Source: Thermoplasmata archaeon (GTDB taxonomy: Archaea > Thermoplasmatota > Thermoplasmata > Lutacidiplasmatales > UBA184). Taken from it: 64,000 nt of DNA. A program made the translations under genes and the position numbers. Shown here one piece after another: positions 40 to 32,889 of this stretch. The notes beneath the pieces were generated by a model. It ran no database searches. It was not told the DNA's origin and saw nothing but the letters and a program-made list of their open reading frames with translations. The stretch is taken from contig JBAUYF010000027.1 in NCBI GenBank assembly GCA_049584655.1, positions 139,836 to 203,835 of the forward strand, given 5' to 3'. Positions within the stretch are counted from its first letter, which is position 1. Each line of letters opens with the position of its first letter.

Positions 40-150
40 GTCGCGCTGCTCGCTGGGGGAGCTACCAGGCTGAGAGGGCGAGCATCGCTCGCCGACCCCA
101 CGAACCTGATCGGGGTAATGCCCGCGAAGGGAACGCGATGCAGCAACGCA
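40..150 (+). promoter_or_regulatory. TPP (THI-box) riboswitch in the 5' leader of the ABC transporter operon
   Basis: Conserved THI-element core read directly: CTGAGA (pos 70-75), a perfect variable P3 hairpin GGCGAGC-atc-GCTCGCC, ACCCC, and GAACCTGATCGGGGTAATGCCCGCGAAGGGAA. The last block matches the consensus GAACCUGAUCUGGAUAAUGCCAGCGUAGGGAA with compensatory changes. GGAGAGG lies immediately before the ATG at 179. Confidence 0.75.
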
Positions 151-4098: not shown

Positions 4099-6855
4099 AT
4101 GAACGCTTCTGACCCCCTGGGAGTCCGGGATCAGGTACCGCTGGGCTCCACTGCCGCGACCGTCTACCGCTTAGACCGACTGGACGGCGTCGATCGAGCC
4201 GCGTTCGACCGCCGCCCCCGAACTATCCGGATCCTGCTCGAGAACCTGCTACGGCACTACGACTCAAAGCAGACCGAGGTCGCCACGCTCCGGGCGCTTG
4301 CCAACGGAACGAAACTATCTTCCGAAACCGAGATCCCGTTCTACCCCGGTCGCGTCCTGTTACAGGACTTCACGGGGCTCCCCGTTCTCGTTGATCTCAC
4401 TACGCTCCGATCCGCCGCAGCCGCCCGGGGATTACCTCCAGGCAGGGTCAATCCGATCGTGCCTGTCGATCTGGTGGTCGACCATTCCGTCCAGGTGGAC
4501 AGCTATGGGTCTGTCCGCTCGCTCGCCGTGAACTTGGACCGAGAGTACGAACGAAACTCGGAGCGCTACCAATTCCTTCGATGGTCGAAAGGCGCGTACC
4601 AAAACCTGCGAATCGTCCCCCCCGGGAACGGCATCGTGCATCAAGTGAACCTCGAACATCTCGCCCAAGTGGTGACCTTGCACGGGGCGAACGGGAACTC
4701 CATCGCGTATCCGGATACTCTGATCGGGACCGATTCACATTCAACGATGGTCAACGGCGTTAGCGTCCTGGGATGGGGCGTCGGCGGGATCGAAGCCGAG
4801 GCGGTGATGCTGGGCGAACCGTATTTTCTGGCACCGCCCGAAGTCGTGGGAGTCGAGCTAAGCGGAAGCTTGCCCGAAGGAGCGACCGCCACAGATCTCG
4901 TCCTCACGGTCACGCGCGCCCTTCGAAAGAAGGGGGTCGTCGACAAGTTCGTAGAATTCACGGGACCAGGGGTTGCCCATCTGACCGTCCCGGATCGCGC
5001 GACGATCTCGAACATGTGTCCCGAGTACGGGGCGACCTCGGCGATGTTCCCGATCGATGAAGCCACTCTCGCATATCTCACGGGAACGGGTCGCGATCCG
5101 CACCTCGTGAGGCGCGTAGAGGCCTACGCGCGCTTGCAGGGATTGTGGGGTACGCGTCCCGTCGGGGAGTTGAAGTTCGATGATGTGCTTCACATCGACC
5201 TCGGATCGATCGTCCCGACGGTGTCGGGCCCCAAGAATCCGGAAGAGAGTGTTGGACTTTCCGAGGCGCCCACTTCGTTCCGCTCCGCCCTAGCAGCGTA
5301 CCGAAAGAGCCACCCTCGGACGACCGAAACGCGGCAGCAGGACTATCCGTCGGACGATCTCTTGCAGCCGTTCAACGGCCCCCGACCGCCCGTGCCGTCC
5401 GGTCAGTTGCCATCCGGCGTTCCCGTGCAGGATGGCGCGGTCGTGATCGCGGCGATCACGAGCTGCACGAATACTTCGAATCCTTCTGTCATGATTGGCG
5501 CCGGGCTGATCGCTCGCCGAGCGTGGGAGTTGGGACTCAAAGTGCCCCCCTACGTCAAGACCTCCCTTGCGCCCGGATCGAAGGTGGTCACTGCGTACTT
5601 GGAAAAGGCTGGTCTCCTCGCTCCCTTGGCAGATTTGGGGTTTGACATCGTGGGGTACGGTTGCACCACTTGTATCGGGAACTCTGGCCCCCTTCCTCCG
5701 GCCGTCGCGGCTAGCATCGTGAACGACGATACGTTTGTCGCGGCGGTGTTGAGCGGCAATCGAAACTTCGAGGCGCGAATCCACAACCTCGTACGGGCGA
5801 ACTATCTGATGTCACCGATGTTGGTCGTGGCGTATGCGCTGGCCGGCCGAATGGATATCGACCTGACACGCGAGCCGCTGGGCAAAGCCAAGGACGGTCG
5901 TGCGATCTATCTCAAGGACTTGTGGCCTCGCGCGGAAGAGATCCGACACTTAGTGGAGCAGAACCTCGACGCCAGCATGTATCGGGACAAGTACCGCGCT
6001 ATCGAGGTGGGCGACGAGCACTGGGAGGCTCTCCAGGTCCCTCCCGGCGAACTCTACCCGTGGGATCCACAATCCACGTACATCCAGGAAGCCCCGTACC
6101 TGCACTTGCCTCTACCCTGGCTCCCGCAACACGGCGTTCTGATTCAGAAGGCGCGCGTCCTCGGAGTCTTTGGCGACCAGATCTCCACGGACCATATCTC
6201 GCCCGCCGGCGAGATCCCCGCCGACACTCCCGCCGGACAATTCCTCGCCGCGCATGGGGTCGCGGCCGCCGAATTCAACACCTATGGCTCGCGGCGAGGG
6301 GACCACGACGTCATGATCCGAGGAACCTTCGCGAACGTGCGGATCAAGAACCAGTTGGTCGCGCCACGCGAAGGCGGATTTACGATCCATGTCCCGTCGG
6401 GAACAACGGGAACGATCTTCGAGATCGCCGAACGATACCGAGCTGAGGGAACGCCCCTCCTCGTCCTCGCCGGGCGCAACTACGGGCAAGGAAGTTCGCG
6501 TGATTGGGCGGCGAAGGGCCCCCGCCTCTTGGGCGTGGGCGCCGTGATCGCGGAGTCGTACGAACGCATCCATCGAAGCAATCTGATCGATATGGGAGTT
6601 TTGCCGCTACAATTCCGTCCCGGAGAAGGGTGGCGACAATTGGACCTCACCGGACGTGAGACGTACCGGCTCGCCCTCGCGCCCGATTCCGAACTAGGCC
6701 CGAACGTGCCCGTCCACGTTGTGGCGATGATTGACGGAGAATCGACCCCGAAGACGTTCACGGTCGATTGCCGACTCCACTCGGCGATCGAGCTCGAGTA
6801 CTATCGGGGGGGTGGAGTTCTCCCGTTCGTCATGGAACGTCGGTTTGGCCGATAA
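4099..6855 (+). CDS. acnA: aconitate hydratase A (918 aa)
   Basis: Aconitase family motifs SCTNTSNP, GYGCTTCIGNSG, SGNRNFEARIH. Full-length AcnA/IRP type. Confidence 0.9.
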   Translation: MNASDPLGVRDQVPLGSTAATVYRLDRLDGVDRAAFDRRPRTIRILLENLLRHYDSKQTEVATLRALANGTKLSSETEIPFYPGRVLLQDFTGLPVLVDLTTLRSAAAARGLPPGRVNPIVPVDLVVDHSVQVDSYGSVRSLAVNLDREYERNSERYQFLRWSKGAYQNLRIVPPGNGIVHQVNLEHLAQVVTLHGANGNSIAYPDTLIGTDSHSTMVNGVSVLGWGVGGIEAEAVMLGEPYFLAPPEVVGVELSGSLPEGATATDLVLTVTRALRKKGVVDKFVEFTGPGVAHLTVPDRATISNMCPEYGATSAMFPIDEATLAYLTGTGRDPHLVRRVEAYARLQGLWGTRPVGELKFDDVLHIDLGSIVPTVSGPKNPEESVGLSEAPTSFRSALAAYRKSHPRTTETRQQDYPSDDLLQPFNGPRPPVPSGQLPSGVPVQDGAVVIAAITSCTNTSNPSVMIGAGLIARRAWELGLKVPPYVKTSLAPGSKVVTAYLEKAGLLAPLADLGFDIVGYGCTTCIGNSGPLPPAVAASIVNDDTFVAAVLSGNRNFEARIHNLVRANYLMSPMLVVAYALAGRMDIDLTREPLGKAKDGRAIYLKDLWPRAEEIRHLVEQNLDASMYRDKYRAIEVGDEHWEALQVPPGELYPWDPQSTYIQEAPYLHLPLPWLPQHGVLIQKARVLGVFGDQISTDHISPAGEIPADTPAGQFLAAHGVAAAEFNTYGSRRGDHDVMIRGTFANVRIKNQLVAPREGGFTIHVPSGTTGTIFEIAERYRAEGTPLLVLAGRNYGQGSSRDWAAKGPRLLGVGAVIAESYERIHRSNLIDMGVLPLQFRPGEGWRQLDLTGRETYRLALAPDSELGPNVPVHVVAMIDGESTPKTFTVDCRLHSAIELEYYRGGGVLPFVMERRFGR

Positions 6856-6983
6856 ACGGGGGAATTACCCGAGTCCTCGGCCCTGCGGGCTCGCCCAATG
6901 GAGGGGTCACGGCCGCCCCCTCCGTTGTTACGATTTTAGAAAACAGCATAACTATTTGTAGCCCGTCCGTGGTTCGCCGCTGA

Positions 6984-8135
6984 ATGAGTTCTTCACTACC
7001 GCCGACCTCGGGACCGGGCGATCTCAACCTCACCCGGCGCGAGAAGTTCCAGATGACGGTGCTCTACGCCGCGATTCTGCTCGCGACGGTCGGAGCGTTC
7101 GCGCTCGCCTTCTTTTACCTCCCTCACAGCCTCCCGAAAGGGGACGGGGTGGCAGGCGGCGGATTGCTCTTCACGGGGCTGGCGATCACCGCCTACATTC
7201 TCGGAATTCGTCACGGATTTGATGCCGACCATATCGCCGCGATCGACAACACAACGCGTAAACTCCTGAATGACGGCGAGCGCCCGCTCACCGTGGGGAC
7301 CTGGTTCTCTCTCGGTCACTCCACGATCGTGTCGGGGATGGTCGTGGGGCTGGTCGTGGCCGCCGAGTTCATTCAGCGCCAGTACAACACCTTCGCGTCC
7401 GTCGGCGCCGTTCTGGGAACGCTCATCTCCGGCGCCTTTCTGTTTATCATCGGTCTCGTCAACGTGATTATTGTTGTCGAGGTCTACCGGATCTTCAAAG
7501 GACTCAAGAACCGAGAGCTCGACCAGAAGGCGCTCGACGCGCAGATGGAAAAGCGCGGGTTCCTCTATCGCTACTTTGGCAAGCTGTTCAAGATCATCAA
7601 GAAGCCGTGGCAGATCTATCCGATTGGGGTCCTCTTCGGCCTCGGCTTCGACACTGCGACGGAGGTGTTGCTGATCGGGATCGCGGTCGTGGTGGCGACC
7701 TCGGGCTCGATCCCGCTGTGGGCTGTCCTGATCTTGCCGCTCTTGTTCACCTGTGGGATGGTGCTCTCCGACACCACGGACGGATTTGCCATGCGCTACG
7801 CGTATGGGTGGGCGTTCCTCAAACCGATCCGCAAGATCTACTACAACCTTACCTTGACGATCATCTCCGTCCTCGTCGCGTTCGTCATCGGGGGCGTAGA
7901 GCTGTTGCAGGTCACGTCGTCCGAGCTCGGCTGGGGCGGCCCGTTCTGGAACTGGCTCAACGGCCTCGATTTTGAAACGCTGGGCTTCGGGATCGTGATC
8001 CTATTCCTTGGGGCGTGGCTGTTGGCGATGGCGATCTACCGGATCAAGCGCTACGAGGACGTCGGATTCGGTCCCGAGCCCACGCCACCGAACCCGCCCG
8101 GACCGGGGGCCGGCCGACTCCCGTCCGAATCGTGA
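6984..8135 (+). CDS. NiCoT family nickel/cobalt high-affinity transporter (HoxN/NixA type)
   Basis: Signature HGFDADHIAAIDNTTRK and LGHSTIVS, with eight predicted TM helices. Confidence 0.85.
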   Translation: MSSSLPPTSGPGDLNLTRREKFQMTVLYAAILLATVGAFALAFFYLPHSLPKGDGVAGGGLLFTGLAITAYILGIRHGFDADHIAAIDNTTRKLLNDGERPLTVGTWFSLGHSTIVSGMVVGLVVAAEFIQRQYNTFASVGAVLGTLISGAFLFIIGLVNVIIVVEVYRIFKGLKNRELDQKALDAQMEKRGFLYRYFGKLFKIIKKPWQIYPIGVLFGLGFDTATEVLLIGIAVVVATSGSIPLWAVLILPLLFTCGMVLSDTTDGFAMRYAYGWAFLKPIRKIYYNLTLTIISVLVAFVIGGVELLQVTSSELGWGGPFWNWLNGLDFETLGFGIVILFLGAWLLAMAIYRIKRYEDVGFGPEPTPPNPPGPGAGRLPSES

Positions 8136-20148: not shown

Positions 20149-20299
20149 AGAGACCGATGTCGGGGCAAAGGTGAGGTCCTACTTAACCCATCCTTTTTTT
20201 CTCAAAATCTGATGAAAAATATCGCTCGCGTCGATCACAATAGTTTCCTACCGGATCGTCCAGCGAGTGGATCTGATAGTCGAACCCGGTACTCACTCA

Positions 20300-20316
20300 C
20301 TTCTTTTATATAGAAG
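20300..20316 (+). promoter_or_regulatory. hsp20 promoter: TATA box inside the palindrome CTTCT-TTTATAT-AGAAG
   Basis: An AT-rich island in a 66% GC genome. The TATA box (20304-20312) lies about 40 nt upstream of the ATG at 20349. A GAGGTGA Shine-Dalgarno sits 5 nt before the ATG. The inverted repeat is a candidate heat-shock repressor site. Confidence 0.5.
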
Positions 20317-20348
20317 TGGAAAATTACTTATGTTGAAATAGAGGTGAC

Positions 20349-20832
20349 AATGTCGAACACTGCCATCGTAGAACTGCCCGCGCTAAGCCCATGGACCGAC
20401 CTCGACACCGTCTGGGACGAGCTCCGAAGCCACTTCTTCGACTCGTTCGGGTTCCTGCCGTTCCCGAACGTCTCCGAAGCGTCCGCGAAGGAACTCGCGC
20501 CGAGACCCCCCCGCACCGACATTCAGGATACCGGCGCCGCGTACAAGATCGTCGCGGAGATTCCGGGAATCCCGAAGGACCGCGTGGAGATCCGCGTGAA
20601 GGGCTCCCAAGTGGAGATACGGGCGGAGAACGAAACCACCACCGAATCCAAGGACCAACCGTTCGTTCACCGCGAACGCTCGTTCCGCGGATTCTACCGG
20701 AGTTTCGAACTCCCGGAACCCGTGGTCGGTTCCGAGGCTACGGCCCATCTCGACCAGGGTGTGCTGGAACTCTCGCTACCAAAGCGAAGTCCCACGCCGT
20801 CCCCGGAAGAGGTCAAGGTCGCGGTACAGTAA
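20349..20832 (+). CDS. Hsp20/alpha-crystallin family small heat-shock protein
   Basis: Alpha-crystallin domain (AYKIVAEIPGIPKDRVEIRVKGSQVEIRAE...ERSFRGFYRSFELPEPV...LDQGVLELSLPK). Confidence 0.9.
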
Positions 20833-26752: not shown

Positions 26753-27112
26753 ATGCCAAGTAAGCCGAGCCGCGGAAAGGGGAGCAAACCCCACCGCTCG
26801 CCAGCGAAGCCGGTTCGCAAAGTCGCCGCGAAGAAACCGACTCCTAAGTCCGCACCGCATCGCCCGGCTCCCAAGGTGAAACCTGCTAAAGCGGTCAAAC
26901 CGAGGGCCGAGGCCGAGGTGGCGGAGATCGCCCCGCTTCCGCGCTCCCCGGATTCGCGTCGTCATGTGCTTTCCCTCTCATTCGTTCGCGACGGGGACGA
27001 GTTCATGGCCCGGCTCGAGACGGATGCGGGGCAGATCACCGAGCTCAAGAACCGGTTCCTAGATCAACTGCTCACCCTCGTCGCGAACGAACTCGAAGAC
27101 ATCCTCGAGTGA
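26753..27112 (+). CDS. small basic protein with histone-H1-like Lys/Pro/Ala-rich N-terminal tail and a conserved acidic C-terminal helical domain
   Basis: Residues 1-60 read PSKPSRGKGSKPHRSPAKPVRKVAAKKPTPKSAPHRPAPKVKPAKAVKPR (SPKK/AKP-type repeats). The C-terminus reads HVLSLSFVRDGDEFMARLETDAGQITELKNRFLDQLLTLVANELEDILE. A TATA-like CATAAATAG lies about 45 nt upstream. Confidence 0.5.
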   Translation: MPSKPSRGKGSKPHRSPAKPVRKVAAKKPTPKSAPHRPAPKVKPAKAVKPRAEAEVAEIAPLPRSPDSRRHVLSLSFVRDGDEFMARLETDAGQITELKNRFLDQLLTLVANELEDILE

Positions 27113-27732: not shown

Positions 27733-28188
27733 GTGAGGCCGAATCTTAAAGTTGGCCCTCCGACTGGCACCGGCTCGATGAAGACCGCGACAGAGTATCT
27801 GTGGTTTGAAACGGGAAAACGACGGGAGTTTCTGAATATTACGGACCAAGTGCGCCGGATCGTGAAATCGAGCCAGGTGCGCGAGGGGTTGGTCCTCGTT
27901 TCGGCGATGCACATCACCGCCGCGGTCTACGTGAACGACGACGAATCCGGATTGATCGGGGATATCGAGCGATGGGCGGACCGGCTCGCTCCTCCCGGAG
28001 ATTACGCGCACCACCACACCGGCGAGTAGAACGGGGATGCGCACCTCAAGAATCTCTTGCTCGGCCACCAGGTCGTATTGCCGATCACGCGTGGCGACCT
28101 CGACCTGGGGCCGTGGGAGCAGGTTTTCTACGCCGAGTTCGACGGGCAGCGGCGCAAGCGCGTCGTGGTGAAAGTATTGGGCGAGTAG
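27733..28188 (+). pseudogene. YjbQ/UPF0047 family (secondary thiamine-phosphate synthase-like) gene interrupted by an in-frame TAG at 28027-28029
   Basis: Upstream 98 aa (…[15 protein letters not shown]…YAHHHTGE) and downstream 52 aa ([52 protein letters not shown]) are colinear with the family consensus (HHTGE-x-N.DAHLK…LGTWQ…GE) in the same frame. There is no frameshift. Confidence 0.65.
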
Positions 28189-28191
28189 CCC

Positions 28192-29310
28192 TCAATTCTG
28201 CAGCTGATCGTCGATCCCCTTCGTCGCCGTCAACGGATGGGGCGCGTAAGCGGGCGCCGGTTTGGTGAGGTCGATTAGCGGAACCTTCCGGGCGATCTCG
28301 CGCGCCATGGCGGAGCAACTCGAGGGAGTGACGGGGCGTGCGGTGTACTGCGGGAGGGCGAGGTCGTAAGTCACGACCTTCTTCTCCGCGATCGTTTCCC
28401 ACACGGCACGCCAGATGCGTTCCGCCGCCTCGTTCTCGCCGAGGTGTCGGAACAAGAGTTCGAGGCAGAGAATCTCGGCGACCGGGTCCGCCTTGTCCTG
28501 TCCCGCGTATTTGGGCGCGGAGCCATGCACCGGTTCGAAAACGGCGATGGAATCGCCGTACAGCGCTCCGGGCGCCACGCCCAATCCCCCGGCGAGGCCC
28601 GCGCAGAGGTCGGACAGGATGTCGCCCATTAGGTTCGTCGTGACGATCACGTCGTATTCGGACGGCTTCTTGACGAGCTGCATGCACATGTTGTCGATCA
28701 GGCGCTCGTCACTCTCGATATCCGGATATTGGGGCGCCATCTCGCGAAAAGCGGTTTGGAAGAGCGCCCCGGTCGTCTTCATGATGTTCGCTTTGTGAAC
28801 CGCGGTGAGGTGGTGCCGGCGCTGTCGGCGCGCGAGCTCGAAGGCGAATCGGATGACCCGATCCGATGCCGCACGAGTCACGATCGCCACTGTCTCCGCC
28901 GCGCTATGATTTCGATCGACCCAATGTTCGACTCCCGAGTAAAGCCCCTCGGTGGTCTCGCGGACTACGATGAGATCGGTCTCGGGAAATCGAGTTCCCT
29001 CGCCCGCGATCGCCCGCGCGGGTCGGACCGATGCGAAGAGATCCAGGTCCACACGTAGTTGAACGTTGACGGAACGGAACCCTCCTCCGATCGGCGTGGT
29101 GATCGGCCCTTTAAGGGCCAGACGATTCTTTCGGACGGATTCGAGAACCGAAGCCGGCAGGGGCGTACCAGTCGCTTCGATCGCCTTTTCGCCGGCTTCG
29201 ACGACGTCCCATGTGATCGGAACTCCCGTCGCCTCCGCGACGACCCGAGCCGCCTGCGTGACTTCCGGTCCGATCCCGTCCCCCGGGATCAGCGTGACGC
29301 GATACGACAT
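28192..29310 (-). CDS. isocitrate/isopropylmalate dehydrogenase family protein, most like NAD-dependent isocitrate (or homoisocitrate) dehydrogenase
   Basis: LIPGDGIGPEV, GPITTPIGGGFRSVNVQLR, and the Mg/substrate motif DLCAGLAGGLG. 372 aa. Confidence 0.8.
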   Translation of the reverse strand: MSYRVTLIPGDGIGPEVTQAARVVAEATGVPITWDVVEAGEKAIEATGTPLPASVLESVRKNRLALKGPITTPIGGGFRSVNVQLRVDLDLFASVRPARAIAGEGTRFPETDLIVVRETTEGLYSGVEHWVDRNHSAAETVAIVTRAASDRVIRFAFELARRQRRHHLTAVHKANIMKTTGALFQTAFREMAPQYPDIESDERLIDNMCMQLVKKPSEYDVIVTTNLMGDILSDLCAGLAGGLGVAPGALYGDSIAVFEPVHGSAPKYAGQDKADPVAEILCLELLFRHLGENEAAERIWRAVWETIAEKKVVTYDLALPQYTARPVTPSSCSAMAREIARKVPLIDLTKPAPAYAPHPLTATKGIDDQLQN

Positions 29311-29450
29311 CCTCTGCTCCAGCGTCGGCGCGAGGACGGCCCGCGGTTAAATCGTGAGCGGCCGTGCCGCTCGCCGTTTGCCCGACTTCACGCCTGCGCC
29401 GGACCGATCGAGCTCTGCGTCTCGCTGAGAAGCGTCGCGCGTGAAGGATG

Positions 29451-29487
29451 CTATTATAAGAATTCTTATAGAAAGAAGAATTCCTAT
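29451..29487 (+). promoter_or_regulatory. AT-rich promoter island with TATA box and duplicated AAGAATTC palindromes upstream of orc1/cdc6
   Basis: The sequence gcTATTATAAGAATTCTTATAGAAAGAAGAATTCCtatg is about 25% GC in a 66% GC context. TATTATAA lies about 35 nt before the ATG at 29493. The palindrome AAGAATTCTT is followed by a direct repeat of AAGAATTC 11 nt later. Confidence 0.45.
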
Positions 29488-29492
29488 GATGC

Positions 29493-30752
29493 ATGCTGCG
29501 TGCGACGTATCCGGAAGTATTGACGACCGATTGGTTGCCTCCCACGGCTCTCGCTCGCCATGCCGAGGTGCAGAAGCTACTCGCTCTGCTCGACCCCGGC
29601 CACCCCCCGAAAGGTCCAGCTCGTGTCGCCGCCGTGACAGGTCCCCGTGGGAGTGGGACCTCGATCATCGCGCGACGAACCGCGCGCGAAGCGGTCGATC
29701 GGCTCCGCACGGTCCGTGACGGACCGCAACCGCTGACCGCGACGGTACGGGTACGTTGGTGTCGTGGAACCCTCGGGGTGGCGACCGCGCTCGTGCAGCA
29801 GCTAGACGAGGGGTTCCACGGCCGAGGATTTCCGGTCGCCGAAATTCTCGCCGGGTATCTACGGCGACTTCGCCGGATGAACCGGCCCACCATCGTGGTT
29901 TTGGAAGATATTGACGTGGGAGGTCCGTCGGTCGTTCCGATCCTACGCGCCTTCCATTCTCCCGACCGCTTCCTTCCGGAGGGCGAGTCCGGCGTTCCGC
30001 CGATTTGGATCATTCTGGCAGGTGGAACTGAGCAATTCGTCGGACTTGGGCGAGAATTGCCCGACTTGGAGCTGCCAAGTCGGTCAATTCGTCTGAGGGA
30101 GTATTCGCGAGCAGAGATCTATCAGATCGTGGAGGAGCGAGCCCGTCGGGCGCTCGGCGGAGATCCCCCTCCAGACCTCGCGCGACAGGTGACGAATCGG
30201 GTTCTCCGAGACGGTGGTGGGGCCCGACGGGCGATGGAACTACTGCGCCGCGAGCTCTCGATTCCCACCACGCTTCCGCCGGCATCGATGGGGCCGCTCA
30301 CCGACTCGTGGTCACGCGGGAACATCGAGCCTCGCGTGCTTTGGGCATTGGACCGCGCGTGCCAGGGCACCTCCGCGTCGGTAGGTATCGTACGCGAATG
30401 GGAAGCCCGATTCGCTCGAGAGACCGGTCATCGTCCTCTCGCGGCCACGACCTTTTGGCGACGCATGATCCGACTCGAACAGGCCGGCGTAGTACGACGC
30501 GAGGTCCGGCCCGGGGGCGACGGGGGCACTCGGACGCTGATCCAACTTCTTGTGCCGGTGGAAGAGTGGGTCAAGAGTCGGGCGCCGCTGGAAACTCGTC
30601 CAGGGTTCGAGGGCGCTTCTGCTTCTCCATGGTTCGCACAACCGGAGTCGCCACCGCAACGGGAGCGAGCGCCGGCGACGTCGAGTCCGTGGCCTCCTTT
30701 CGACCGCGGCGTACCTGGTCGAGCACCGATGCGGCCAGCTGGGGAGACCTGA
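29493..30752 (+). CDS. Orc1/Cdc6-family AAA+ protein with degenerate Walker A (GPRGSGTS, Lys replaced by Thr) and C-terminal winged helix
   Basis: Colinear with archaeal Orc1/Cdc6: LPPTALARHAEVQKLL, P-loop position VTGPRGSGTSIIARR, Walker B IVVLEDID, sensor region, and a wH (TTFWRRMIRLEQAGVVRREV...TRTLIQL). The last 60 aa or so are a Pro-rich tail overlapping the convergent hel308 and may be read-on. Confidence 0.75.
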   Translation: MLRATYPEVLTTDWLPPTALARHAEVQKLLALLDPGHPPKGPARVAAVTGPRGSGTSIIARRTAREAVDRLRTVRDGPQPLTATVRVRWCRGTLGVATALVQQLDEGFHGRGFPVAEILAGYLRRLRRMNRPTIVVLEDIDVGGPSVVPILRAFHSPDRFLPEGESGVPPIWIILAGGTEQFVGLGRELPDLELPSRSIRLREYSRAEIYQIVEERARRALGGDPPPDLARQVTNRVLRDGGGARRAMELLRRELSIPTTLPPASMGPLTDSWSRGNIEPRVLWALDRACQGTSASVGIVREWEARFARETGHRPLAATTFWRRMIRLEQAGVVRREVRPGGDGGTRTLIQLLVPVEEWVKSRAPLETRPGFEGASASPWFAQPESPPQRERAPATSSPWPPFDRGVPGRAPMRPAGET

Positions 30753-32889
30753 GCACTTGGCTGATGCGATCCATAGGAGCCGCTCGGAGAGCGTTCCGAT
30801 CTTCGTAGCCGGCCCGGAAGAGAAGTCGGGCGCGTACGCGTCCGATGCCCCGCAACCGAACGAGGTCGAGGAGCTCTTCCCGGACGCCGTACCGGATGCG
30901 CAATGCGAGGTCGTCGATCGGCCGCGACAGGCGTCGCTGAAACCGGGTGGCGAGCCGCGAGGCCCCGAAGAGTAGCCAATCCGCGTCTTCGACCTTCGTT
31001 CGCAAGTCTCCCGCCCCGATGCCAAATTTTTCCGTCAGGGTTACGATAGGAGTCTCTGCGATCCACTCTTCCAAGATCGCGGCGGTCTTGAGCGTTGAGA
31101 GGAACAGATCCAGATCGAGCTCCAGAGGGGCCTCTTCAGGCTGGACCAACAGTTCGGCGGCCTCGTCGGTAAACCGGGCGAGGTACTGGGCCTCCTCCCC
31201 GCGCCGCAGGAAGACCGGGGGCAGATCCGGTGTCGCAGCGACCGCGGCGAGGATTGAGAACGGCTGCACGCCGATAGGAGCTCGCTCAAGCATCGAGCGG
31301 AGCACGATGGCGCTCAAAGGATCGAGATACAGCTCCGAGGTCATGGCGCCGAACGGCGTCGCCCGCAGGGTCGGTCCGGGCGCCAACAAGTCGTTCTCCT
31401 CGAGAAACCGGCGCACCGTCCGGATGGTGTCGGCGAGTTCCGGTAACGGAAGGGTGTGGCCGTAAAACGTTCCTTGAAAGAAATCCTCGAGTTCGTCCTC
31501 GGTTTGGACTGCTTGGCTCGCGATCAGCGCCAGCACGTGCATTCGAAGCGCGGGTTCGGCGGCGAGGCGAGATCGAATGTCCTCGGGCGGCGCCGAGAGG
31601 TAGTCATCGAGCAATCGTTCCACATCGTCGTCGCTGCGCGCGATCAGGATCGCCTCGCCCGTTCGGTCGAAGCGAGGGCGGCCGGCTCGGCCGCACATCT
31701 GTTGCACTTCCATCGCCGAGATCGGCGCTTGCATGCCGATTCGATCGTCGTACCGCGTGGTGTCCCGAACGATGACCCGTCGCGCCGGTAGATTAATCCC
31801 GGCGGCAAGGGTAGGGGTTGCGACCAAGGCCTTTAACACGCGGTCTCGGAAGGCCCGCTCGACGACGCGACGCTCCGGATTCGTGAGGGACGCGTTATGG
31901 AACGCCACTCCATGCGGGAGCAAGGCGGCCAGCCGACGGATTCCTTCCGTGTCCTCTTCCGACACGGACTGAAGTTCTTCGCCGGAAGCGCGCGCGGCTG
32001 CACGCTCAGCGGTCGTGAGCAGCGGCCGAACAGTGGCCGTCAATTGCTGGGCAGTTTGCTCACTCGCCTTTCGCGTGTTGACGAAAACGAGGGCCTGTCC
32101 GCCGTCTTCAATGACCGTGCGTACGAGTCGTGGAAGCGCTTCCCCCGGCGCGTCCAAATCGCGCGTCGTGAGGTCGGTGAAGAGGATGCGCCCTGCGTGG
32201 TAAACGCCGGACTTCAAAGGGACCGGTCGAAAATCGCTGCGGATGTGCCGCGCCTTGAGCCAGTCGGCGATCTCTTGAGAGTTCCCGACGGTCGCGGACA
32301 GGCCCACGATCTGTAACTCCGGCAGGACCCGTTTCAGTCGGGTGAGGGTCACTTCGAGCGTCGGTCCCCGATCGGGATCCCGCATGAGATGGATCTCGTC
32401 CGCAACTACGACGCCGAGCCGGTCCAGCCAAGGGCTCCCCTTTCGCAAGAGGCCGTCCGCCTTTTCGCTGGTCGCTACGAGAATATCGAGCTTGGCCAGT
32501 CGGTCCGCGGGCAGGTCGAAGTCGCCGATCGAAAGACCTATCCGGAAGCCGAGCTCCTCGAAGGCACGCAGCTCATCATACTTTTCCTGCGCCAAGGCGC
32601 GTAGCGGTACGAGGTAGAGCCCGGTCTGGTGCTTCGTCGCCGCGCGAAGGAGCGCGAGGTAGGCGACCAACGACTTTCCGCTGGCGGTCGGGCAGGCGAG
32701 GACAACGCTCTCGCCCGCGAGCACGTGCGGGACCGCCTCTGCCTGCGGCGGGTAGAGCGACGTAATCCCTTCTCGTTCGAGGATCCGGACCCAGGAAGGG
32801 TCGAGATGCAGATCGGCAATCGGAATGCGTCGTTCGGCGTCCGAAGGCGAGGGAGAGTCGGTGTCGGAATGACCGACCTTAGAGGTCAC
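30571..32889 (-). CDS. hel308: Hel308/Hjm (Ski2-like) DNA helicase
   Basis: LYPPQAEAV, Walker A CPTASGKSLVAYLA, DEIH box VVVADEIHLMRD, SAT motif GLSATVGN, and the ratchet/HhH C-terminal domains. 772 aa with a low-complexity C-terminal tail. Confidence 0.85.
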   Translation of the reverse strand: MTSKVGHSDTDSPSPSDAERRIPIADLHLDPSWVRILEREGITSLYPPQAEAVPHVLAGESVVLACPTASGKSLVAYLALLRAATKHQTGLYLVPLRALAQEKYDELRAFEELGFRIGLSIGDFDLPADRLAKLDILVATSEKADGLLRKGSPWLDRLGVVVADEIHLMRDPDRGPTLEVTLTRLKRVLPELQIVGLSATVGNSQEIADWLKARHIRSDFRPVPLKSGVYHAGRILFTDLTTRDLDAPGEALPRLVRTVIEDGGQALVFVNTRKASEQTAQQLTATVRPLLTTAERAAARASGEELQSVSEEDTEGIRRLAALLPHGVAFHNASLTNPERRVVERAFRDRVLKALVATPTLAAGINLPARRVIVRDTTRYDDRIGMQAPISAMEVQQMCGRAGRPRFDRTGEAILIARSDDDVERLLDDYLSAPPEDIRSRLAAEPALRMHVLALIASQAVQTEDELEDFFQGTFYGHTLPLPELADTIRTVRRFLEENDLLAPGPTLRATPFGAMTSELYLDPLSAIVLRSMLERAPIGVQPFSILAAVAATPDLPPVFLRRGEEAQYLARFTDEAAELLVQPEEAPLELDLDLFLSTLKTAAILEEWIAETPIVTLTEKFGIGAGDLRTKVEDADWLLFGASRLATRFQRRLSRPIDDLALRIRYGVREELLDLVRLRGIGRVRARLLFRAGYEDRNALRAAPMDRISQVLRSPQLAASVLDQVRRGRKEATDSTSPALAPVAVATPVVRTMEKQKRPRTLDEFPAAPDS

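What the first reader, a model, noticed from the sequence alone, without database searches (positions are those of the whole stretch)
29311..30752. Orc1/Cdc6 paralogue with a dead P-loop behind an AT-rich palindromic promoter, convergent with Hel308
The protein is colinear with archaeal Orc1/Cdc6 (AAA+ plus wH), but the Walker A reads GPRGSGTS, with the invariant lysine replaced by Thr, so ATP binding is probably lost. Its promoter is a 37-bp AT-rich island (TATTATAAGAATTCTTATAGAAAGAAGAATTCC) with a TATA box and two AAGAATTC palindromic units that look like a repressor or initiator operator. No ORB-like repeats or extended DUE are present, so this is more likely a regulatory or specialised paralogue than the main initiator. 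The C-terminus overlaps the convergent hel308 by about 180 nt. A degenerate initiator paralogue next to the fork-repair helicase could be a replication-restart or regulatory pairing.
Basis: partly seen in the sequence, partly recalled or inferred. Interest (0 to 1): 0.5.

Follow-up and report, generated by a model that had tools for sequence, protein, structure and literature searches.

The report
Dead-ATPase Orc1/Cdc6 paralogue in soil Thermoplasmata
This soil archaeon carries a relative of the replication initiator Orc1/Cdc6 that keeps its DNA-binding parts but has lost every ATP-handling motif, a state conserved in at least 134 related species, so it is probably a DNA-binding regulator or accessory factor, not a conventional initiator.

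Summary
ORF 29493..30752(+) has the Orc1/Cdc6 fold (AAA+, lid, winged helix). Its Walker A reads GPRGSGTS, with Thr56 (codon ACC) in place of the lysine. This is not a sequencing error: three independent assemblies give the identical protein, and 134 species-level Thermoplasmata genomes (UBA184 / Ca. Lutacidiplasma lineage) lack the lysine too. Walker B Glu, sensor-1 Asn and sensor-2 Arg are also gone. The initiator-specific motif and the winged helix are the best-conserved parts, and the core is under purifying selection (dN/dS 0.07-0.14).

The gene lies in a conserved housekeeping region (L11-NusG-FtsZ...IDH-[it]-Hel308). No ORB or DUE is nearby.

Its promoter motif TTCTTATA sits 29-30 nt before the ATG, which implies a leaderless mRNA. 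Of 82 copies in 1.39 Mb of related loci, 81 lie at this promoter. The second AAGAATTC unit is specific to the window's clade.

The 182-nt overlap with hel308 is real and conserved (79/80 loci). The overlapping tail is disordered and unconstrained (dN/dS about 1).

Most likely this is a nucleotide-independent DNA-binding paralogue. I could not test whether a canonical Orc1 coexists in the same genome. I rate it a new variant of a known kind, of moderate interest.

The parts
29311..29492 (.). 182-bp divergent intergenic region between the IDH-family gene (-) and the Orc1/Cdc6-like gene (+)
   Evidence: In about half of the related loci a 302-aa MscS-like gene is inserted here.
29452..29484 (+). 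33-nt AT-rich island, the promoter of the Orc1/Cdc6-like gene
   Evidence: It holds the longest of the 20 AT-rich islands (19 nt, 29452-29470) found in the 64-kb window.
29455..29470 (.). Perfect 16-bp palindrome TATAAGAATTCTTATA. It places the TTCTTATA motif on both strands.
   Evidence: Identical in L001 and L002, near-palindromic in the 'ATTAGAATTCTTATA' group of relatives, not palindromic in the 'AACAGTATTCTTATA' group.
29463..29470 (+). TTCTTATA, a near-invariant TATA-box motif 30 nt before the ATG. The distance implies a leaderless mRNA.
   Evidence: The motif starts 29-30 nt before the start codon in 75 of 81 loci. Of 82 occurrences in 1.39 Mb, 78 are at this position and 3 are palindromic partners. 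It is unique in the window.
29458..29465 (+). First AAGAATTC unit, at the BRE position. Conserved in relatives as AG(A/T)ATTC.
29476..29483 (+). Second AAGAATTC unit, between the TATA box and the start codon. Specific to this clade; most relatives have TAGTTAT(A/C)C here.
29493..30752 (+). Orc1/Cdc6-like pseudo-ATPase gene, 419 aa
29640..29663 (+). Degenerate Walker A, G50-P-R-G53-S-G55-T56-S57, with Thr (ACC) in place of Lys
29802..29834 (+). Initiator-specific-motif loop LDEGFHGRGFP (residues 104-114), among the most conserved segments
   Evidence: Invariant D105, G107, F108, G110, R111, G112, F113. It aligns with FDxGFPDRGFS of canonical relatives and with the FTGLS of Sso Orc1-1.
29892..29915 (+). 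Degenerate Walker B IVVLEDID (residues 134-141), with Asp139 in place of the catalytic Glu
29961..30002 (+). Family-specific invariant motif PDRFLPEGESGxPP (residues 157-170), before strand beta4. Function unknown.
   Evidence: It was one of the two peptide patterns specific enough to retrieve the family.
30330..30563 (+). Winged-helix domain (residues ~280-357), with recognition helix TTFWRRMIRLEQAG and wing RPGGDGGT
30564..30749 (+). Disordered, unconstrained C-terminal tail (residues 358-419). Translation runs on antisense to the hel308 3' end.
   Evidence: pLDDT below 50. dN/dS 0.7-1.3.
30571..30752 (.). 182-nt convergent ORF overlap with hel308
   Evidence: An overlap is present in 79 of 80 related loci, median 137 nt.
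30571..32889 (-). Hel308 helicase gene. Its C-terminal linker and RTLDEFP motif are encoded inside the overlap.
28192..29310 (-). Isocitrate/isopropylmalate dehydrogenase-family gene, the divergent upstream neighbour

Best explanation
The gene encodes a vertically inherited, chromosomal Orc1/Cdc6 paralogue that has become a pseudo-ATPase.

Shown:
- It keeps the three-domain initiator fold.
- Its two DNA-contacting modules, the initiator-specific motif and the winged helix with its wing, are the most conserved parts.
- It has lost the Walker A Lys, the Walker B catalytic Glu, the sensor-1 Asn and the sensor-2 Arg.
- It is made from a highly conserved, gene-specific promoter, AG(A/T)ATTC-TTATA. 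The fixed 29-30 nt distance to the ATG implies a leaderless mRNA.
- Translation runs past the folded core into a disordered, unconstrained tail that is antisense to the 3' end of hel308.

Inferred:
- The protein binds DNA without the ATP/ADP switch that controls real initiators. It acts as a site-specific DNA-binding factor: a transcriptional or chromosomal regulator, possibly autoregulating at its own BRE/TATA-overlapping element.
- A separate canonical Orc1/Cdc6 elsewhere in the genome fires the origin.
For: Fold and homology:
- TIGR02928 matches at E 1.2e-12.
- The family profile matches Sso Orc1-1 (2qby_A) at E 1.1e-8.
- The AF2 model has pLDDT 75.5. Its top Foldseek hits are 2qby_A, 1w5t, 2v1u and 1fnn, at E 1e-16 to 1e-13 over about 390 columns.

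Motif loss:
- In 29 homologues the P-loop reads G..G.G[T/S/A]S. Walker B is LDD or LED. The sensor-1 position is AG. The sensor-2 Arg position varies.
- In the all-database representative search, every representative of the lysine-less clade with a resolved P-loop lacks the canonical Walker A GK[ST] and the Walker B DE (all but three also lack GDAR). Two of them carry Arg at the Lys position.
- Among the listed canonical relatives, nearly all carry GK[ST] and most carry DE and GDAR; they score 81 bits or less.

Selection and inheritance:
- The family is present in 134 species-level genomes.
- Core dN/dS is 0.07-0.14.
- The exact protein occurs in 3 independent assemblies.

DNA-binding modules are conserved: see the invariant columns.

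Core chromosomal context: L11, NusG/Spt5, FtsZ, IDH, Hel308 and NFACT, syntenic across the order. There are no PADLOC hits and no viral contigs.

No origin signature.

Promoter.

Precedents:
- Sulfolobales Orc1-2 is a non-initiator Orc1 that regulates transcription and binds its own promoter (PMC9738581).
- Thermoplasmatota commonly carry a second, fast-evolving Orc1/Cdc6.2 suggested to be 'inactive or accessory' (PMC4153887).
Against: - No canonical Orc1/Cdc6 was shown in the same genome. The window and 80 loci of 3-21 kb contain none, and my attempts to link canonical copies to the same assemblies failed.
- No DNA target is demonstrated. Autoregulation rests only on the unusually conserved promoter.
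- In the one characterised non-initiator (Orc1-2), Walker A is required for DNA binding and function (K72A is defective; PMC9738581). Loss of the lysine could therefore weaken DNA binding.
- The P-loop glycines, Ser57 and Asp139 are invariant, so some ligand binding may persist.
Confidence: 0.55

Rival explanations
1. It is an accessory replication subunit. The dead-ATPase paralogue would work with a canonical Orc1/Cdc6 or with MCM as a structural, non-catalytic partner at origins or at restarted forks. This would resemble Orc2/Orc3 in eukaryotic ORC, or a Cdt1/WhiP-like recruiter.
For: - The full initiator architecture, with ISM and wH, is retained under purifying selection.
- There is an invariant family-specific surface motif, PDRFLPEGESGxPP, of unknown role.
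- The position next to hel308 is conserved.
- The one outlying lysine-less homologue with context sits beside a 202-aa ORF with an MCM_OB domain.
- In Haloferax, orc1 at oriC1 lies in the vicinity of hel308 (PMC1868953).
Against: - No origin elements lie nearby.
- The hel308 adjacency cannot be separated from general synteny. It is absent in the outlying homologue.
- The MCM_OB link is a single case.
- No interaction data exist.
Confidence: 0.2
2. It is the initiator itself: the main or only Orc1/Cdc6 of this lineage, working without an ATP switch.
For: - It appears universal and single-copy, with a fixed chromosomal place, in 134 species.
- I found no canonical copy in the window or loci, or among the 120 best-scoring hits listed by each of two canonical-Orc1 searches, on the same contigs.
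- Methanococcales and Methanopyrus show that very divergent initiators exist (PMC3914693 lists them as lacking a recognisable Cdc6/Orc1).
Against: - No ORB or DUE is adjacent, and there is no skew inflection at the gene.
- It evolves much faster than its neighbours: 44-52% identity against 63-93% for Hel308 and 78-95% for IDH.
- All four ATP elements are lost, whereas ATP binding governs MCM loading in the studied archaeal initiators (established knowledge).
- My canonical-copy searches were limited to 120 listed hits each. Both used one canonical subgroup and did not cover the classic Orc1-1 type, so absence is not shown.
- Canonical copies of both types exist in other high-GC Thermoplasmatota.
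Confidence: 0.1
3. It is a decaying relic with no function, or an artefact (sequencing error, or a spurious ORF in GC-rich DNA).
For: - Scores fall below the curated family cut-offs.
- The catalytic motifs are lost.
- It evolves faster than its neighbours.
Against: - Core dN/dS is 0.07-0.14.
- The ORF is intact in 134 species.
- Eighty columns are invariant.
- The fold is predicted with confidence.
- The identical protein occurs in three assemblies.
- The promoter is conserved.
Confidence: 0.02
4. It is a mobile-element or defence-island STAND/AAA_16 NTPase that only resembles Orc1/Cdc6.
For: - The best Pfam hit is AAA_16. There is a weak nSTAND_NTPase5 hit (E 0.0064).
- Extra Orc1/Cdc6 copies in archaea often come from integrated elements (PMC3914693).
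Against: - The housekeeping synteny is conserved across the order.
- There are no PADLOC hits and no viral contigs.
- The fold hits are Orc1/Cdc6 over the full length, including lid and wH.
- The ISM is shared with canonical Thermoplasmatota Orc1.
Confidence: 0.02

Closest known systems
Archaeal Orc1/Cdc6 initiators (S. solfataricus Orc1-1 2qby_A, A. pernix ORC1 2v1u and ORC2 1w5s/1w5t, P. aerophilum Cdc6 1fnn; TIGR02928)
   Same: - Same three-domain fold and collinear sequence: N-terminal 'vL..dW/YvP' segment, P-loop, ISM, Walker B strand, lid with a GxxxRRAxDLLR-like helix, and wH with wing.
   Different: - Walker A Lys, Walker B Glu, sensor-1 Asn and sensor-2 Arg are all replaced.
- It scores 47 bits against a 181-bit cut-off.
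- No adjacent ORB/DUE origin.
- It has an extra invariant PDRFLPEGESGxPP loop and a disordered tail.
Thermoplasmatota Orc1/Cdc6 group with the ISM 'FDxGFPDRGFS' (includes Methanomethylophilus Cdc6), and the 'fast-evolving Orc1/Cdc6.2' described for Methanomassiliicoccales (PMC4153887)
   Same: - These are the nearest ATP-competent relatives in the all-database profile search (81 bits and below).
- They share the ISM loop and the wH 'TQFW' (ours: 'TTLW') helix.
- The literature already suspects that one Thermoplasmatota paralogue is 'inactive or accessory'.
   Different: - Those proteins keep GKT, DE and GDAR.
- The published Cdc6.2 lies in a non-conserved context, whereas this family is strictly syntenic.
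- Whether this family is the orthologue of Cdc6.1 or Cdc6.2 is unresolved.
Sulfolobales Orc1-2, the non-initiator DNA-damage-response regulator (PMC9738581)
   Same: - An Orc1 paralogue that does not initiate replication. It binds promoters, including its own, through ISM and wH. This makes it a functional model for a regulatory Orc1.
   Different: - Orc1-2 has intact Walker A and B motifs and needs ATP binding and hydrolysis as its on/off switch. This family has neither.
- Its DDRE motif ANTTTC is absent from this intergenic region.
- It belongs to a different phylum, and no orthology is shown.
Eukaryotic catalytically inactive initiator paralogues (Orc2, Orc3; Sir3 AAA+-like domain)
   Same: - Initiator-clade AAA+ folds that lost nucleotide catalysis and serve as structural or chromatin-binding modules (established knowledge; the model also matches Orc4/Orc5 chains).
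   Different: - The relation is analogy only. There is no specific sequence relationship and no evidence of a hetero-oligomeric ORC here.

Membership tests
Orc1/Cdc6 (archaeal initiator family, TIGR02928 / Pfam Cdc6_lid + Cdc6_C) | AAA+ base, helical lid and C-terminal winged-helix architecture | tested here: met
   The AF2 secondary structure fits this architecture. Full-length Foldseek matches to 2qby_A, 1w5t, 2v1u and 1fnn, E 1e-16 to 1e-13.
Orc1/Cdc6 (archaeal initiator family, TIGR02928 / Pfam Cdc6_lid + Cdc6_C) | Score above the curated family thresholds | tested here: not met
   TIGR02928: 47.4 bits against 181.3. Cdc6_C: 15.6 against 25.1. Cdc6_lid: 11.5 against 27.
Orc1/Cdc6 (archaeal initiator family, TIGR02928 / Pfam Cdc6_lid + Cdc6_C) | Walker A GxxGxGK[ST] | tested here: not met
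   The motif reads GPRGSGTS. Lys is absent in all 29 aligned members and in every representative of the clade with a resolved P-loop.
Orc1/Cdc6 (archaeal initiator family, TIGR02928 / Pfam Cdc6_lid + Cdc6_C) | Walker B hhhhDE, sensor-1 Asn, sensor-2 Arg (GDAR) | tested here: not met
   Walker B is LED/LDD. The sensor-1 position is AG. GDAR is replaced by GGGAx, with the Arg position variable.
Orc1/Cdc6 (archaeal initiator family, TIGR02928 / Pfam Cdc6_lid + Cdc6_C) | Initiator-specific motif between Walker A and Walker B | tested here: met
   Helix-loop-helix at residues 92-129 with an invariant DxGFxGRGF loop. It aligns with the canonical FPDRGFS and FTGLS.
Orc1/Cdc6 (archaeal initiator family, TIGR02928 / Pfam Cdc6_lid + Cdc6_C) | Gene adjacent to an origin with ORB repeats and an AT-rich unwinding element | tested here: not met
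   ORB-core matches are at chance level. The only AT-rich island is the 33-nt promoter. There is no skew inflection.
Orc1/Cdc6 (archaeal initiator family, TIGR02928 / Pfam Cdc6_lid + Cdc6_C) | Origin binding and ATP-dependent MCM loading | not testable with these tools
   Needs biochemistry or genetics.
Sulfolobales-type Orc1-2 non-initiator regulator | Intact Walker A/B acting as an ATP on/off switch | tested here: not met
   The requirement is described in PMC9738581.
Sulfolobales-type Orc1-2 non-initiator regulator | DDRE (ANTTTC) in its own promoter | tested here: not met
   Absent on both strands of 29311-29492. Present in only 15 of 81 related upstream regions.
Sulfolobales-type Orc1-2 non-initiator regulator | Coexists with true initiator paralogues; dispensable for initiation | not tested
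Mobile-element / defence STAND NTPases | Variable, island-like context and matches to defence or viral models | tested here: not met
   Conserved housekeeping synteny. No PADLOC match. No viral contigs.

The most novel reading that the evidence does not exclude
The soil Thermoplasmata of the UBA184 / Lutacidiplasma lineage may have evolved a catalytically dead Orc1/Cdc6 subunit that acts in replication itself. It could be a structural partner of a canonical Orc1 or of MCM, which would be an archaeal counterpart of the inactive Orc2/Orc3 subunits of eukaryotic ORC. In the extreme case it could be a nucleotide-independent sole initiator.
Probability: 0.2. Interest if true: 0.8.

Novelty: new variant of a known kind. 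Interest (0 to 1): 0.45.

Why it matters
Orc1/Cdc6 proteins are the textbook ATP-switched initiators shared by archaea and eukaryotes. Here a whole archaeal order keeps, under purifying selection and at a fixed chromosomal place, a copy whose four ATP-handling elements are all gone while its DNA-binding modules are intact.

This family offers three things:
- A natural 'Walker-dead' experiment on what the initiator fold can do without nucleotide.
- A possible parallel to the way eukaryotic ORC gained inactive subunits and Sir3 became a chromatin protein.
- A case that current annotation misses. Sources call these proteins 'AAA family ATPase' or 'hypothetical protein', and they fall below the TIGR02928 cut-off.

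The promoter element, which is almost exclusive to this gene, gives a directly testable candidate operator.

Tried and rejected
1. Coexistence with a canonical Orc1/Cdc6 in the same genome: not resolved.
   - An HMM of the family found no paralogue in the window or in the 80 loci.
   - I used the two remaining homologue searches on canonical Thermoplasmatota Orc1. I compared contig lengths and WGS prefixes by look-up. Nothing matched.
   - Both searches list only 120 hits, and both used the 'FPDRGFS' subgroup. They did not cover the classic Orc1-1 type, so absence is not evidence.
   - The supplements of the Lutacidiplasmatales paper mention no Cdc6, Orc1 or Hel308.
2. Origin search: the ORB core is at chance level. 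The AT-rich stretch at 20.2-20.35 kb is an ordinary divergent promoter region.
3. A possible second target site at 6933-6957 resembles the upstream elements of relatives. It lies before a NicO nickel transporter. I dropped it as coincidental.
4. Deeper link to hel308: only one outlying homologue with context could be fetched (L089). It is not next to hel308 or IDH.
5. Palindrome significance from the window alone: rejected.
6. Orc1-2 DDRE: absent.
7. Defence or viral origin: rejected.
8. Assigning the family to the Cdc6.1 or the Cdc6.2 lineage by PDB similarity: inconclusive.
Full report
**What is there**

The window has about 62% GC. ORF 29493..30752(+) encodes 419 aa. An in-frame TGA at 29487-29489 fixes the ATG at 29493 as the only possible start. 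Upstream, on the other strand, lies an isocitrate/isopropylmalate-dehydrogenase-family gene (28192..29310). Downstream and convergent is Hel308 (30571..32889; PRK02362, 777 bits). The two convergent ORFs overlap by 182 nt.

**Is it Orc1/Cdc6?**

Sequence models see it only weakly. TIGR02928 gives 47 bits (E 1.2e-12) against a cut-off of 181. Pfam AAA_16, Cdc6_lid and Cdc6_C all fall below threshold. A profile of 29 homologues matches S. solfataricus Orc1-1 (2qby_A, E 1.1e-8) and P. aerophilum Cdc6 (1fnn).

An AlphaFold2 model was built on that alignment (pLDDT 75.5). Residues 20-256 and 280-356 are confident; residues 358-419 are disordered. The model matches archaeal Orc1/Cdc6 structures over its full length: 2qby_A, 1w5t, 2v1u and 1fnn, at E 1e-16 to 1e-13, followed by eukaryotic Orc1, Cdc6, Orc4 and Orc5. 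So the fold and domain order are those of an initiator.

**The dead P-loop**

Residues 50-57 read GPRGSGTS. Thr56 is encoded by ACC, two changes away from a Lys codon. The identical 419-aa protein is encoded in three independent assemblies of public sequencing runs, which rules out a sequencing error.

In the 29-sequence alignment:
- The P-loop glycines and Ser57 are invariant, but position 56 is T, S or A and never K.
- Walker B is L-[E/D]-D, with Asp139 in place of the catalytic Glu.
- The sensor-1 position is an invariant Ala-Gly.
- The Arg of the canonical GDAR (sensor 2) is variable.

A profile search of 1.84 billion cluster representatives found 431 relatives. I aligned the top 150 to the profile. 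Every member of the clade with a resolved P-loop lacks the lysine; two carry Arg there. This covers about 48 full or partial representatives above 270 bits and an outlying group at 60-157 bits. All of them also lack DE, and all but three lack GDAR. The outlying group has W[LF]D[QN], a natural 'E-to-Q'. The canonical relatives score 81 bits or less. Nearly all of them have GK[ST], and most have DE and GDAR. The loss is therefore ancient, clade-wide and affects all four ATP elements together.

**What is conserved instead**

- The ISM loop (D105, G107, F108, G110, R111, G112, F113). It matches the FDxGFPDRGFS of the nearest canonical Thermoplasmatota Orc1 group, which includes Methanomethylophilus Cdc6.
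- The wH recognition helix and wing (T319, T320, W322, R323, R324 ... R335, R336, R339, G341, G342, G344, G345, T346).
- A family-specific loop, PDRFLPEGESGxPP.

Between the window and its two closest relatives, dN/dS of the core is 0.07-0.14. IDH gives 0.04-0.05 and Hel308 about 0.05. The gene is functional, not a relic.

**Distribution and context**

A scan of one genome per species found the family in 134 genomes. All but two of the 80 listed record titles name a Thermoplasmata/Thermoplasmatota archaeon, and most look like soil or peat MAGs from their isolate names. They include UBA184, UBA61 and Ca. Lutacidiplasma silvani, that is, the Lutacidiplasmatales / TMEG lineage (PMC9287336).

- In 77 of the 80 fetched loci the order is IDH(-), the Orc-like gene(+), Hel308(-); two short loci lack IDH and one lacks Hel308.
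- In about half of them an MscS-like gene lies between IDH and the Orc-like gene.
- Outside the window's own clade the Orc-like protein is 44-52% identical. Hel308 is 63-76% and IDH 78-86% identical, so the Orc-like protein evolves faster than its neighbours.
- The wider region is also syntenic: L11, Spt5/NusG, FtsZ, MptE-like..., acyl-CoA dehydrogenase, NFACT.

This is a core chromosomal gene and not an island. There are no PADLOC matches and no viral contigs. It also means that adjacency to hel308 carries no special weight. The single outlying lysine-less homologue with context (L089) is not next to hel308. It sits beside a short ORF with an MCM_OB domain.

**Promoter**

The quoted AT-rich string is at 29452-29484 (33 nt). 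It contains a perfect 16-bp palindrome (29455-29470) and AAGAATTC at 29458 and 29476. A 16-bp palindrome by itself is expected about twice per window. The comparison with relatives is what matters:

- TTCTTATA starts 29-30 nt before the start codon in 75 of 81 loci.
- In 1.39 Mb of related sequence this 8-mer occurs 82 times. Of these, 78 are at that position and 3 are the palindromic partners. In the window it occurs only here.
- Upstream it extends to AG(A/T)ATTC.
- Downstream most relatives have TAGTTAT(A/C)C. The window's clade alone has the second AAGAATTC unit.
- Many relatives have a further element, TAGC(A/C)nTTT(T/C)C, near -65.

The fixed TATA-to-ATG distance implies a leaderless mRNA (inference from standard archaeal promoter geometry). 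An element this specific, overlapping BRE/TATA, is what a dedicated repressor or activator site looks like. Which protein binds it is unknown. Autoregulation is a hypothesis.

**Origin**

ORB-core matches in the window are at chance level. There is no DUE-like AT-rich stretch and no skew inflection at the gene.

**The overlap with hel308**

An overlap exists in 79 of 80 loci, with a median of 137 nt. The folded core of the Orc-like protein ends almost exactly at the hel308 stop codon. The 60-residue tail is disordered and has dN/dS of 0.7-1.3, whereas the Hel308 frame in the same DNA has 0.37-0.58.

The Hel308 tail carries a conserved terminal motif, R(T/R)L(D/E)(E/D)(F/Y)P, after a Pro/Ala/Arg-rich linker. 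The only conserved residues in the Orc-like tail (E-T-R-P) are the antisense shadow of that motif. So the overlap is real, but the overlapping peptide is translational run-on. What is conserved is the tight 3'-3' packing, which forces convergent transcripts to overlap.

**Interpretation**

The best-supported reading is a pseudo-ATPase Orc1/Cdc6 paralogue that binds DNA through ISM and wH without a nucleotide switch. It probably acts as a regulator, possibly an autoregulated one.

Two precedents support this. Sulfolobales Orc1-2 is a non-initiator that regulates the DNA-damage response and binds its own promoter. It needs its Walker motifs, however, and its ANTTTC element is absent here (PMC9738581). 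Thermoplasmatota also carry a fast-evolving Orc1/Cdc6.2 that has been suggested to be inactive or accessory (PMC4153887, PMC3914693).

**The main gap**

I could not show that a canonical Orc1/Cdc6 coexists in these genomes. Two readings therefore stay open at lower probability: a structural replication subunit, or a nucleotide-independent initiator.

**Verdict**

This is a new variant of a known kind: a clade-wide, ATPase-dead Orc1/Cdc6 family that current annotation does not recognise. I rate its interest as moderate.

Noticed in passing
window 45-150 (+): TPP riboswitch (RF00059, 62.5 bits, above the gathering score) at the very start of the window. It is the only Rfam hit in the 64 kb.
   Followed up: no
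window 28027-28029, inside the UPF0047/YjbQ-family ORF 27733..28185 (+): An in-frame TAG interrupts an otherwise intact, conserved UPF0047 gene (...HHHTGE*NGDAHLK...). In 49 related loci the same position is Thr, Ser or Ala. This genome therefore has a recent nonsense mutation, an assembly error, or possibly a recoded stop.
   Followed up: partly
window 26753..27112 (+): A 119-aa protein with a Lys/Pro/Ala-rich basic N-terminal half and a conserved C-terminal half. It has no Pfam match, yet is found in 63 of 80 related loci at a median 83% identity. That is more conserved than most neighbours. It could be a chromatin or nucleic-acid-binding protein.
   Followed up: no
window 30571-30650 (-), and the equivalent position in L001-L080: Hel308 of this lineage ends in a conserved short motif, R(T/R)L(D/E)(E/D)(F/Y)P, after a Pro/Ala/Arg-rich linker. 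It looks like a partner-docking peptide (PIP-box-like, but without the Gln and the second aromatic residue).
   Followed up: partly
L003 9000..9908 (-), and about half of loci L003-L080: A 302-aa MscS-like membrane protein gene is present between IDH and the Orc-like gene in about half of the species. It is absent in the window's clade. Despite this presence/absence difference, the Orc-like promoter is unchanged.
   Followed up: partly
L089 4606..5211 (-), next to 5989..7125 (+): In the only outlying lysine-less Orc-like locus that could be fetched, the divergent neighbour is a 202-aa ORF with an MCM_OB domain (28.6 bits, above the cut-off). A resolvase-type HTH protein and a Cdc48-like ATPase are nearby. 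This may be an integrated element, or a hint of a link to MCM.
   Followed up: partly
window 20149-20350: The second most AT-rich stretch of the window: a 200-bp divergent intergenic region with TTCTTTTATATAGAA about 37 nt before an ATG at 20351. It looks like an ordinary strong promoter and not an origin.
   Followed up: partly
L085 and L086 (canonical Orc1 loci of other high-GC Thermoplasmatota): The canonical 'FPDRGFS'-type orc1/cdc6 is followed by a PCMT-type methyltransferase and a family-B DNA polymerase gene in two unrelated assemblies. This looks like a conserved replication-gene cluster, unlike the context of the dead-ATPase family.
   Followed up: no
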